Shown here: one piece after another, positions 25,561 to 27,715 of the stretch
How positions within the stretch are numbered: the stretch's first letter is position 1
How the letters are laid out: each line of letters starts with the position of its first letter
From: the human T2T-CHM13v2.0 reference genome, Homo sapiens
Length of the DNA: 64,000 bases
Assembly: GCA_009914755.4 (NCBI GenBank)
Contig: CP068257.2
Location: forward strand, 14,944,001 to 15,008,000
Direction: 5' to 3'
The notes under the pieces: model-generated
Seen by the model: only the letters and a program-made list of their open reading frames with translations
Databases searched by the model: none
Told to the model about the DNA's origin: nothing
Made by a program: the position numbers and the translations under genes

Positions 25561-25788
25561 CTTATATTTTTGTTTCATATTTTGTAATATATCAGGTCCA
25601 TGAAATTAGCTATCTTAAGTAAGTTGCTTTTGTGTTGTTTCTTATGACAATTCTGATTAGAATATTAATACAAACGTGAAATGCAGCTTTTACCAACAAA
25701 TGGGCTAGTTTTTATTGAATCAATAAAACCCATATTTTGAGAGTTTTACTCAAAAGAACCTAAAATTCAGTTGAATATAAAGAAATGG

Positions 25789-26130
25789 GGTTGTTTGTTT
25801 TTTTCTTGTAAATTTGTTTGAGTTCATTGTAGATTCTGGATATTAGCCCTTTGTCAGATGAGTAGGTTGCGAAAATTTTCTCCCATTTTGTAGGTTGCCT
25901 GTTCACTCTGATGGTAGTTTCTTTTGCTGTGCAGAAGCTCTTTAGTTTAATTAGATCCCATTTGTCAATTTTGGCTTTTGTTTCCATTGCTTTTGGTGTT
26001 TTAGACATGAAGTCCTTGCCCATGCCTATGTCCTGAATGGTAATGCCTAGGTTTTCTTCTAGGGTTTTTATGGTTTTAGGTCTAACGTTTAAGTCTTTAA
26101 TCCATTTTGAATTAATTTTTGTATAAGGTG
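25789..26130 (-). mobile_element. Young L1PA element, 5' inverted segment (ORF2 codons ...[22 protein letters not shown]...KKTNNPI), part 1 of a twin-primed insertion
   Basis: The minus-strand ORF at 25760-26152 translates to an uninterrupted L1 ORF2 segment. Its nucleotide sequence is close to the L1PA consensus. Confidence 0.85.
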
Positions 26131-26977
26131 GGCGAAGGACATGAACAGACACTTCTCAAAAGAAGACATTTATGCAGCCAAAAAATACATGAAAAAATGC
26201 TTACCATCACTGGCCATCAGAGAAATGCAAATCAAAACCACAATGAGATACCATCCCACACCAGTTAGAATGGCAATCATTAAAAAGTCAGGAAACAACA
26301 GGTGCTGGAGAGGATGTGGAGAACTAGGAACACTTTTACACTGTTGGTGGGACTGTAAACTAGTTCAACCATTGTGGAAGTCAGTGTGGCGATTCCTCAG
26401 GGATCTAGAACTAGAAATACCATTTGACCCAGCCATCCCATTACTGGGTATATACCCAAAGGACTATAAATCATGCTGCTATAAAGACACATGCACATGT
26501 ATGTTTATTGTGGCACTATTCACAATAGCAAAGACTTGGAACCAACCCACATGTCCAACAATGATAGACTGGATTAAGAAAATGTGGCACATATACACCA
26601 TGGAATACTATGCAGCCATAACAAAGGATGAGTTCATGTCCTTTGTAGGGACATGGATGAAATTGGAAATCATCATTCTCAGTAAACTATCGCAAGGACA
26701 AAAAACCAAACACCGCATGTTCTCACTCGTAAGTGGGAATTGAACAATGAGAACACATGGACACAGGAAGGGGAACATCACACTCTGGGGACTGTTGTGG
26801 GGGGGGGAGATGGGGGAGGGATAGCATTAGGAGATATACCTAATGCTAAATGACGAGTTAATGGGTGCAGCACACCAGCATGGCACAGGTATACATATGT
26901 CACTAACCTGCACATTCTGCACATGTACCCTAAAACTTAAAGTATAATAATAATAAAATAAATAATTTTAAAAAAAA
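26131..26977 (+). mobile_element. Young L1PA element, direct 3' segment (ORF2 C-terminus [10 protein letters not shown]... through the 3'UTR and poly(A)), part 2 of the same insertion
   Basis: The 200-aa ORF at 26141-26743 is the L1 ORF2 C-terminal end. The 3'UTR (...gggagggatagcattaggagatatacctaatgctaaatgacgagttaatgggtgcagcacaccagcatggcaca.gtatacatatgt.actaacctgcac...) is followed by a short poly(A). Confidence 0.9.
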
Positions 26978-27080
26978 GGCCAACTTGTGAAGCTAAAACC
27001 AGCAAAAAAAAAAAAAAGTGTTATTCAAGAGTAAGAATGAAATAAAGATTTGTTTTTGGATAAACAAAAAAAAAAGAAAG
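26978..27080 (+). mobile_element. Putative L1 3'-transduced flank: unique sequence with AATAAA at 27041-27046 followed by poly(A), lying between the L1 poly(A) and the distal TSD
   Basis: Sequence is ggccaacttgtgaagctaaaaccagc-A14-gtgttattcaagagtaagaatgaaATAAAgatttgtttttggataaac-A10, followed by the TSD aaagaaatgg at 27081-27090. The same TSD lies at 25779-25788. Confidence 0.45.
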
Positions 27081-27715
27081 AAAGAAATGGCAATTACTTA
27101 GAGAGGCTTGGAAGGTATATTTCAGAAACCGATGTGACAGCACTTACTGATAATTACAGTGTTAAAAAAAAAGTTTCTGTTTTGAATGTTCATGTAAATT
27201 TGCATTAAATTTAATTGTTGTCAAATGTGTAGTTTATGTTCTAGTGTGACAATTTTTAATTTTGTTTATATTCATTTATGATTCATTTGAAAGGGTTTTT
27301 GTGTAAATTGATTGATTTGTAACAAAATGCCAATTCTCATGGTACATTATTAAAATTCTGTGTTAGTGATAGAGCTGCTTTTTATAAAAAGGATACTTTC
27401 CATTAACATTTGAAAGTAAGTATTCCTCACTTTATCCTGATAATGATAATGACAAAAACTTGTATGGGAGGATGTGAACCAGCACTACACAACTTCTAAC
27501 GTTTTGTCTTACAGTGCTTCAATTTTCTATCTTGTAAACTTATATTTGTCCAGCTAATTGGATTACATTAAGTGATCTGGTATTTTTAAGCAAAACAAAA
27601 TAACAGATCTTTGTAAGAGCCAAATCAAAGACTTTGGCCTATTATACATGTAAGCTAGGCTTTATTTGTTGTCATTTTAAAGAAATAGTAATGGTGACCA
27701 AAAAACAGCAGAATC

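What the first reader, a model, noticed from the sequence alone, without database searches (positions are those of the whole stretch)
25779..27090. Young L1PA insertion showing twin-priming inversion, a probable ~100-bp 3' transduction and a 10-bp TSD, lying immediately beside an old L1
Bases 25789-26130 encode L1 ORF2 codons (...SKWIKDL...KKTNNPI) on the minus strand. Bases 26131-26977 carry the directly adjoining ORF2 C-terminus ([10 protein letters not shown]...), 3'UTR and poly(A) on the plus strand. About 10 nt (atcaaaaagt) are missing at the junction. This is the classic product of twin priming during target-primed reverse transcription. The L1 poly(A) is followed by about 100 bp of unique sequence containing AATAAA (27041-27046) and a second and third A-run. 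Only after that comes aaagaaatgg (27081-27090), which repeats the 10-mer found immediately 5' of the insertion (25779-25788). That arrangement implies read-through of the source element into its 3' flank, a 3' transduction, which could in principle identify the progenitor locus. The low divergence of the ORF2 sequence indicates a primate-specific L1PA subfamily.
Basis: partly seen in the sequence, partly recalled or inferred. Interest (0 to 1): 0.5.

Follow-up and report, generated by a model that had tools for sequence, protein, structure and literature searches.

The report
Inverted L1 insertion with extra tail
This is an ordinary 5'-truncated primate L1 retrotransposon copy whose front part was inverted during insertion (twin priming) and which probably carried about 100 bp of its parent's downstream flank; both are well-known outcomes of L1 retrotransposition.

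Summary
Bases 25785-26130 (minus strand) encode L1 ORF2p residues 956-1068. Bases 26128-26743 (plus strand) encode residues about 1072-1275 and the stop codon, followed by the L1 3'UTR and an A-rich tail ending at 26977. Against real L1 DNA copies, only CAAAAA (6 nt; up to 13 depending on how shared bases are assigned) is missing between the two arms. Four bases (ATGG) are shared between the target-site duplication (TSD) and the inverted arm, and three (GTG) between the two arms. The 10-mer AAAGAAATGG abuts the 5' end and recurs once, at 27081-27090. No competing TSD lies near the earlier A-runs. Twin priming is therefore strongly supported. The 103 bp between the L1 tail and the 3' TSD lie inside the TSD and contain AATAAA 19 nt before a terminal A10 run. 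This is the standard anatomy of a short 3' transduction. The decisive test, a second copy sitting 3' of a source L1, could not be run because no primate genome was available. One metagenome contig shares 35/40 bases with part of the segment, but it has no L1 beside it and is too diverged to be the source. I tested whether the segment is pre-existing flank and found no support. The element is L1PA-type, probably L1PA3-like. Ordinary and already known; low interest.

The parts
25779..25788 (+). 5' copy of the target-site duplication, AAAGAAATGG. Its last 4 nt (ATGG, 25785-25788) are also complementary to L1 RNA CCAU at the internal priming site.
   Evidence: Exact 10/10 repeat of 27081-27090 and only two + strand copies in the window. 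L1 references read ...AACAACCCCAT|CAAAAA.
25785..26130 (-). Inverted 5' arm of the L1 insertion: ORF2 codons about 955-1069, with an open reading frame.
   Evidence: 107/113 identical to L1 ORF2p 956-1068. 3 differences in 331 nt from the consensus of 26 L1 copies.
26128..26130 (.). Inversion joint: GTG is shared by the end of the inverted arm (reverse complement of CAC in ...TTACACCTTATAC) and the start of the direct arm (GTGGGCGAAGG).
   Evidence: Alignment to L1 references.
26128..26743 (+). Direct arm: ORF2 C-terminus (codons about 1072-1275) and the stop codon.
   Evidence: E 3.7e-129 to L1 ORF2p 1074-1275. ORF 26141-26743. 16 differences in 610 nt from the reference consensus.
26744..26954 (+). 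L1 3'UTR, including the G-rich tract and the ...CCCTAAAACTTAAAGTATAATAATAAT end.
   Evidence: Aligns to the 3'UTRs of L1 copies L001-L026. Diagnostic states are identical to L002.
26955..26977 (+). The L1's own A-rich tail (AAAATAAATAATTTTAAAAAAAA), containing the element's weak AATAAA signals at 26952 and 26957.
   Evidence: Similar patterned (TAAA)n tails occur in reference copies L001 and L007.
26978..27003 (+). Extra segment, piece 1 (GGCCAACTTGTGAAGCTAAAACCAGC). Non-L1 and unique in the window.
   Evidence: Single copy in the window. No match in the 81 fetched loci or in viral contigs.
27004..27017 (+). Internal A14 run. Either a genomic A-run of the source flank or the poly(A) of an earlier transduction step.
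   Evidence: No AATAAA or ATTAAA lies between 26957 and 27041, so none within 30 nt upstream of this run.
27018..27065 (+). Extra segment, piece 2, carrying AATAAA at 27041-27046, 19 nt before the terminal poly(A).
   Evidence: Single copy in the window. 27014-27053 matches metagenome contig L081 at 35/40.
27066..27080 (+). Terminal poly(A) of the inserted RNA (A10 then GAAAG).
   Evidence: It lies directly before the 3' TSD.
27081..27090 (+). 3' copy of the target-site duplication, AAAGAAATGG.
   Evidence: It extends to 12/14 if ATATAAAGAAATGG is compared with AAAGAAAGAAATGG.

Best explanation
This is one L1-mediated retrotransposition event of an L1PA (L1PA3-like) RNA.

1. **Read-through (inferred).** The RNA read through the element's own weak poly(A) signal for about 88 nt into the source locus's 3' flank. 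It was cleaved about 19 nt after a flank AATAAA and polyadenylated.
2. **First nick and priming.** ORF2p endonuclease nicked the bottom strand at 5'-CCATTTCTTT/ATATTC-3'. The T-rich end primed on the poly(A), and the first cDNA copied the flank tag, the L1 tail, the 3'UTR and ORF2 back to codon about 1072.
3. **Second priming.** The top strand was cut 10 nt away. Its 3' end ...ATGG paired with CCAU in the L1 RNA (ORF2 codons 1068-1069) and primed a second cDNA of about 345 nt, running toward codon about 955.
4. **Joining.** The two cDNAs were joined at a 3-nt microhomology (GTG). This gave an inverted 5' arm, a direct 3' arm, loss of 6 nt (CAAAAA) at the priming point, 5' truncation, and a 10-bp target-site duplication.

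Shown here: the arm identities, their adjacency in L1 coordinates, the microhomologies, the TSD, and the position of AATAAA and the A-runs.

Inferred: the order of the steps, and that the extra 103 bp come from the source element's 3' flank.
For: **Arms**
- They are L1 ORF2p 956-1068 (minus) and 1074-1275 (plus).
- Alignment to 26 L1 DNA copies shows the L1 sense sequence ...AACAACCCCAT CAAAAA GTGGGCGAAGG. The inverted arm ends at CCCCAT and the direct arm starts at GTGGGCG.
- Both arms are little diverged. Private changes are 2/343 versus 12-17/850, Fisher p 0.12-0.37.

**TSD**
- 10/10 exact, abutting the inverted arm and following a terminal A-run. It appears in 0.5% of shuffles.
- No alternative TSD candidate lies near the first or second A-run.
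- The implied nick site CTTT/AT resembles the L1 endonuclease consensus TTTT/A (sequence; motif variants listed in PMC12016303).

**Extra segment**
- AATAAA at 27041-27046 lies 19 nt before A10.
- The segment is unrelated to the flanks. Alignments of segment versus reconstructed empty site, flanks versus L081, and flanks versus L1 ORF1 all fall within shuffles.

**Literature**
- 5' inversions occur in 18% of germline L1 insertions (PMC12016303).
- About 25% of L1 insertions carry 3' transductions, most under 100 bp and often flanked by poly(A) on both sides. A poly(A) signal lies 10-30 bp upstream of 79% of transduction ends (PMC13009371).
Against: - **No source copy found.** Nothing in the window, viral contigs or the 81 fetched loci.
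- **The one metagenome hit is not the source.** L081 matches only 40 nt at 88% and has no L1 next to it.
- **The internal A14 is unexplained.** No poly(A) signal lies within 30 nt upstream of it, so its origin is open.
- **Low complexity at the 3' TSD.** That copy sits in purine-rich sequence (AAAAAAGAAAGAAAGAAATGG), which raises the chance-match rate above a uniform model. The shuffle test already allows for composition.
- **Unequal raw distance of the arms.** Distance to the mixed reference consensus differs somewhat between arms (3/331 versus 25/848, p 0.05). This is probably because subfamily-diagnostic sites are concentrated in the 3' part.
Confidence: 0.7

Rival explanations
1. The twin-primed L1 and its TSD are real, but the extra 103 bp are not the source's 3' flank. 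Instead, one or two very short polyadenylated retrocopies later inserted into the L1's A-tail, where their own A-rich TSDs would be invisible. Alternatively, the reverse transcriptase began on another polyadenylated RNA and switched template to the L1 RNA.
For: - This predicts the same anatomy: extra sequence inside the TSD, AATAAA 19 nt before the terminal A10, and A-runs on both sides of each piece.
- Piece 2 has a relative elsewhere that is not next to an L1 (L081).
- A-tails are good L1 endonuclease targets (established knowledge).
Against: - It needs two extra rare events of 26 and 48 nt in one tail, or an unusual polarity of chimera. Catalogued L1 chimeras carry the foreign RNA on the 5' side of the L1 (bioRxiv 10.1101/2025.02.02.635956).
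- Short partnered transductions flanked by poly(A) on both sides are common (PMC13009371).
- Rfam finds no small-RNA family in the segment.
Confidence: 0.17
2. 26978-27080 is pre-existing target DNA. The L1 ends at its own A-tail (26977) or at the A14 run, has no detectable TSD, and the AAAGAAATGG repeat is a coincidence in A/G-rich sequence.
For: - The 3' copy of the 10-mer lies in low-complexity purine-rich sequence.
- About 30% of germline L1 calls lack a detected TSD (PMC12016303).
- By eye, the flanks and the extra piece seemed to read as one old L1 ORF1 remnant. L081 itself resembles the L1 ORF1 3' end marginally (p 0.015-0.075).
Against: - The 10-mer match is exact, abuts the L1 5' end, and occurs in only 0.5% of shuffles.
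- No other TSD candidate exists.
- The junctions this model implies (…ATGG|GTGTT or …ATGG|GGCCAAC) give no T-rich endonuclease site, whereas the 10-mer gives CTTT/AT.
- The contiguous old-repeat idea failed every test. Pfam found no family. Protein and DNA alignments of the 5' flank, 3' flank and piece 1 to L1 ORF1 or to L081 are all within shuffles.
Confidence: 0.08
3. The two arms come from two independent L1 insertions in opposite orientation that happen to abut, not from twin priming.
For: L1-into-L1 nesting is common, and an old L1 lies nearby.
Against: - The arms' breakpoints coincide within 6-13 nt in L1 coordinates.
- The inverted arm has no poly(A) or TSD of its own.
- One TSD pair brackets both arms.
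- Both arms are similarly young.
- Microhomology is present at both joints.
Confidence: 0.02

Closest known systems
L1 5' inversion by twin priming (Ostertag and Kazazian 2001 model)
   Same: - Inverted 5' arm plus direct 3' arm, adjoining in L1 coordinates with a small loss (6-13 nt).
- A single TSD around both arms.
- Microhomology between the target's 3' end and the L1 RNA, and at the cDNA joint.
- 5' truncation.
   Different: Nothing of note. The arm gap (a deletion rather than an overlap) is one of the two usual outcomes.
Short partnered L1 3' transduction
   Same: - L1 tail, then non-L1 sequence, then a second poly(A), all inside the TSD.
- Canonical AATAAA 19 nt before the terminal poly(A).
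- Total tag under 100 bp, as is typical.
   Different: The source locus is unidentified here. The tag also contains an internal pure A14 run, which could mean a two-step (serial) transduction or simply an A-run in the source flank.
L1PA3-type primate L1 subfamily
   Same: - The ORF2 C-terminus and 3'UTR are about 2% from the nearest recovered human-type L1 copies.
- 3'UTR states (CCAGCATGG, AACTAACC, CACATTGTG/CCCTAAAAC together with CTAAATGACGAGTTAATGGG) are intermediate between the youngest-looking and older-looking copies.
   Different: The subfamily label rests on my recollection of consensus sequences. No RepeatMasker or Dfam call was possible, so L1PA2 or L1PA4 cannot be excluded.

Membership tests
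LINE-1 (L1PA) retrotransposon insertion | Homology to L1 ORF2 and the L1 3'UTR | tested here: met
   ORF2p 956-1068 and 1074-1275, E 1e-66 and 4e-129. The 3'UTR aligns to 26 L1 copies.
LINE-1 (L1PA) retrotransposon insertion | 3' poly(A) and a flanking target-site duplication at an endonuclease-like site | tested here: met
   A10 directly before the 10/10 TSD. The implied nick is CTTT/AT, close to TTTT/A but not one of the three canonical variants.
Twin-priming 5' inversion | The upstream L1 segment is inverted and lies at the 5' side, and the two segments adjoin in L1 coordinates with a small deletion or duplication | tested here: met
   Inverted arm ends at ...CCCCAT, direct arm starts at GTGGGCG, and only CAAAAA is missing.
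Twin-priming 5' inversion | One TSD pair brackets both arms, and the inverted arm has no poly(A) of its own | tested here: met
Twin-priming 5' inversion | Both arms have the same age and subfamily | tested here: inconclusive
   Private substitutions are 2/343 versus 12-17/850, not significantly different (p 0.12-0.37). No formal subfamily call was possible.
Twin-priming 5' inversion | Complementarity between the top-strand 3' end and the L1 RNA at the internal priming site, and microhomology at the cDNA joint | tested here: met
   ATGG (TSD end) pairs with CCAU in the RNA. GTG is shared at 26128-26130.
L1 3' transduction | Non-L1 sequence between the L1 tail and a terminal poly(A), all inside the TSD | tested here: met
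   26978-27065 is non-L1 and is followed by A10 and then the TSD.
L1 3' transduction | Poly(A) signal 10-30 nt upstream of the terminal poly(A) | tested here: met
   AATAAA at 27041-27046, A-run from 27066.
L1 3' transduction | The transduced sequence maps directly 3' of a source L1 elsewhere in the genome | not testable with these tools
   No primate genome was available. Searches of the window, viral contigs, metagenome contigs and the fetched loci gave only L081 (40 nt, 88%, no L1 adjacent).
L1 3' transduction | The orthologous empty site lacks the extra sequence and has a single copy of the TSD | not testable with these tools
   Exact-protein look-ups of three locus-specific ORFs found nothing on record.
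L1PA3 subfamily | Subfamily-diagnostic nucleotides in ORF2 and the 3'UTR | not testable with these tools
   Only unlabelled L1 copies were available. The window shares all informative 3'UTR states with L002 and is 92.7% identical to L1HS ORF2p over 315 aa.

The most novel reading that the evidence does not exclude
The extra segment may record two successive 3' transductions. Piece 1 plus A14 would come from a grandparent locus, and piece 2 plus A10 from the parent locus. The 88-nt tag would then trace an L1PA3-era progenitor lineage through two generations and could identify sibling insertions.
Probability: 0.2. Interest if true: 0.2.

Novelty: already known. Interest (0 to 1): 0.1.

Why it matters
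It matters little beyond annotation. It is a clean textbook example of twin priming with base-level microhomologies. If the tag maps 3' of an L1, it would link this fixed insertion to its progenitor locus. Twin priming affects roughly a fifth of L1 insertions and 3' transduction roughly a quarter, so neither feature is surprising. Their co-occurrence is expected at a few percent of insertions.

Tried and rejected
1. **Old L1 ORF1 remnant idea.** By eye, the 5' flank, the extra segment and the 3' flank seemed to read as one contiguous old L1 ORF1 3' remnant (…QPRI.YPAKLSFK.EGEIKTF.DKQKLREF…). That would have made the extra segment pre-existing flank and the AATAAA merely the conserved GAAATAAAG. 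Not supported:
   - Pfam found no family for any composite translation.
   - BLOSUM62 local scores against real (PDB 2yko) and remembered ORF1p sequences were within shuffles for both flanks, and at best p 0.03 for the segment.
   - DNA alignments of the flanks, piece 1 and both reconstructed empty sites against L1 ORF1 DNA or L081 were all within shuffles.
   - Only the 40-nt L081 match is significant.
2. **L081 as the source locus.** Rejected: 88% identity over 40 nt only, and no L1 upstream.
3. **Exact-protein look-ups** of three locus-specific ORFs, to find the same or orthologous locus: nothing on record.
4. **Viral-contig scans** for both pieces: nothing.
5. **Rfam on the tail region:** only sub-threshold chance hits.
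6. **Paralogues of the flanks in the window:** none.
7. **Clean subfamily tree from the 26 recovered L1 copies:** the informative sites are mosaic, possibly because of chimeric low-coverage assemblies. No firm subfamily call was made.

Full report
**What is in the sequence**

The window is primate-type genomic DNA rich in Alu and L1. AAAGAAATGG sits at 25779-25788 and again at 27081-27090, with no other + strand copy in the 64 kb.

Between the two copies:
- The minus strand of 25789-26130 reads without stops in the L1 frame as ...[17 protein letters not shown]...[11 protein letters not shown]. This matches human L1 ORF2p residues 956-1068 (107/113).
- The plus strand from 26141 reads [10 protein letters not shown]... 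to a stop at 26741-26743. This matches ORF2p 1074-1275 (E 3.7e-129).
- The L1 3'UTR and an A-rich tail follow, to 26977.
- Then comes 26 nt of non-L1 sequence, a pure A14 (27004-17), 48 nt of non-L1 sequence containing AATAAA (27041-46), A10 (27066-75), GAAAG, and the second 10-mer.

**Getting an L1 DNA reference**

No repeat library was available. I searched the bacterial and archaeal genome collection with the reconstructed 320-aa ORF2 C-terminus. This recovered 80 loci that are evidently human-type L1 contamination in 'bacterial' assemblies, 26 of which cover the whole region.

Aligned to these, the L1 sense strand reads ...AAAAAAACAAACAACCCCAT CAAAAA GTGGGCGAAGGACATGAAC....
- The inverted arm's homology runs through CCCCAT, which is window 25785-25790 on the + strand as ATGGGG.
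- The direct arm's homology begins at GTGGGCG (26128).
- Only CAAAAA is therefore absent.
- The four bases ATGG belong both to the TSD and to the L1.
- At the internal joint, the inverted arm ends ...GTATAAGGTG (reverse complement of CACCTTATAC) and the direct arm begins GTGGGCG, sharing GTG at 26128-26130.

**Twin priming**

These details are what the twin-priming model predicts.
- The bottom-strand nick implied by the TSD is 5'-CCATTTCTTT/ATATTC-3', which is T-rich like the L1 endonuclease consensus.
- The top-strand 3' end created 10 nt away ends in ATGG. This can pair with CCAU in the L1 RNA exactly where the inverted arm starts.
- The first cDNA stops 6 nt short of that point.
- The two cDNAs are joined at a 3-nt microhomology.

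Both arms are young. They differ from the reference consensus at 3/331 (inverted), 16/610 (direct ORF) and 9/222 (3'UTR) positions. Changes shared with no reference number 2/343 versus 12-17/850, which is not significantly different.

Independent abutting insertions would need breakpoints that coincide within about 13 nt of a roughly 6-kb element, and the inverted arm has no tail or TSD of its own. I put twin priming at about 0.95. It is common: 18% of germline L1 polymorphisms (PMC12016303).

**The TSD**

- The 10-mer recurs in 0.5% of dinucleotide shuffles of the 320 bp downstream.
- A scan allowing mismatches and shifted 5' ends found no other candidate near the first or second A-run. The repeat can be extended to 12/14.

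**The extra 103 bp**

Its anatomy is that of a short partnered 3' transduction: inside the TSD, preceded by the L1's own tail, and ending in poly(A) 19 nt after a canonical AATAAA. Such events affect about a quarter of L1 insertions. Most are under 100 bp, they are often flanked by poly(A) on both sides, and 79% end 10-30 bp after a poly(A) signal (PMC13009371).

The defining test is a second copy directly 3' of a source L1. It needs a primate genome, which these tools do not hold.
- Neither piece recurs in the window, in viral contigs or in the 81 fetched loci.
- A 22-mer scan of metagenome contigs gave one vertebrate-looking contig, L081. It matches 27014-27053 at 35/40 with a 3-nt gap (0 of 1000 shuffles reach this score).
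- L081 has no L1 next to the match, and the similarity stops 12 nt before the poly(A) site. It is not the source. More likely it is another copy of some old repeat.

**A rival I took seriously**

By eye, L081, the extra segment and both flanks looked like the 3' part of an old L1 ORF1. If the flanks and the segment were one contiguous remnant, the segment would be pre-existing DNA and the transduction reading would fall. I tested this.
- Pfam sees nothing in any composite translation.
- Protein-level and DNA-level local alignments of the 5' flank, the 3' flank, piece 1 and both reconstructed empty sites are all within the shuffle distributions. The targets were L1 ORF1 (real PDB sequence, plus remembered sequence whose translation I checked) and L081.
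- L081 itself resembles the ORF1 3' end only marginally (p 0.015-0.075).

There is therefore no evidence that the segment is continuous with its flanks. If anything, the similarity to L081 is confined to the segment, as expected if it is foreign to the target site. The junctions required by the 'pre-existing flank' model also give no endonuclease-like site.

**What remains open**

- A true 3' transduction (single, or two-step given the internal A14) cannot be separated here from a nested short retrocopy or a template-switch chimera. Both would look identical locally.
- Catalogued L1 chimeras place the foreign RNA 5' of the L1, not 3' (bioRxiv 10.1101/2025.02.02.635956). That, and the need for extra rare events, make these rivals less likely.
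- No poly(A) signal precedes the A14 run, so it may simply be an A-run of the source flank.

**Subfamily and age**

- The element is 92.7% identical to L1HS ORF2p over 315 residues and about 2% from the nearest recovered L1 copies.
- It shares all informative 3'UTR states with L002. These states are intermediate between the youngest-looking and older-looking copies.
- From memory of consensus sequences this is L1PA3-like.
- About 1.2-1.6% private substitutions suggests an age of roughly 10-15 million years.
- Both statements are inferences, not tool calls.

**Context**

It is split by a minus-strand Alu, and its detectable homology ends about 290 bp from the insertion.

**Verdict**

Twin priming and the TSD are well supported. 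The 3' transduction is the best reading (about 0.7) but is unproven. Everything here is a known, frequent outcome of L1 retrotransposition, so interest is low.

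Noticed in passing
L001-L080: Eighty contigs in assemblies labelled as bacteria encode human-type L1 ORF2, 26 of them across the full 320 aa at 92-96% identity. 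Several also carry unique human-like flanks. Examples are several Streptomyces and Actinomadura JCM genomes, Mycobacterium spp., Algoriphagus, Psychrobacter and various MAGs. This looks like human DNA contamination in public prokaryotic genome records.
   Followed up: partly
L081:382-421 versus window 27014-27053: Metagenome contig ERZ781270 NODE-32028 looks like vertebrate DNA at low coverage. It shares 35/40 bases with part of the extra segment but nothing else with the window. It may be another copy of an old repeat, since its resemblance to the L1 ORF1 3' end is marginal (p 0.015-0.075). Its species of origin is unknown.
   Followed up: partly
window 24410-24725 and 25203-25500 (minus), Alu ending about 25196: An old, highly diverged L1 ORF2 C-terminal fragment (37-56% amino-acid identity to the young copy) is interrupted by a minus-strand Alu.
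   Followed up: partly
window 27696-27880: A short Alu left-arm-like fragment lies on the minus strand, preceded by T11. It is flanked by roughly 18-bp direct repeats (TGACCAAAAAACAGCAGAAT and TGACCAAAATAGCAGAAT). Another Alu starts immediately after, at about 27890.
   Followed up: no
window 56720-56917 (minus): Another old L1 ORF2 fragment (39% amino-acid identity to ORF2p residues about 1071-1132).
   Followed up: no
(PDB chain 9d2f_J): A solved chain named Cilia- and flagella-associated protein 61 matches 68 residues of the L1 ORF2p C-terminal segment (E 1e-9). This suggests an L1-derived stretch in that deposited sequence.
   Followed up: no
window 25760-26152 (minus): A 130-aa open frame starts in the reverse complement of the direct arm, runs through the whole inverted arm, and continues across the 5' TSD into the flank. 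It is a by-product of the young, still-open ORF2 frame and not a gene.
   Followed up: yes
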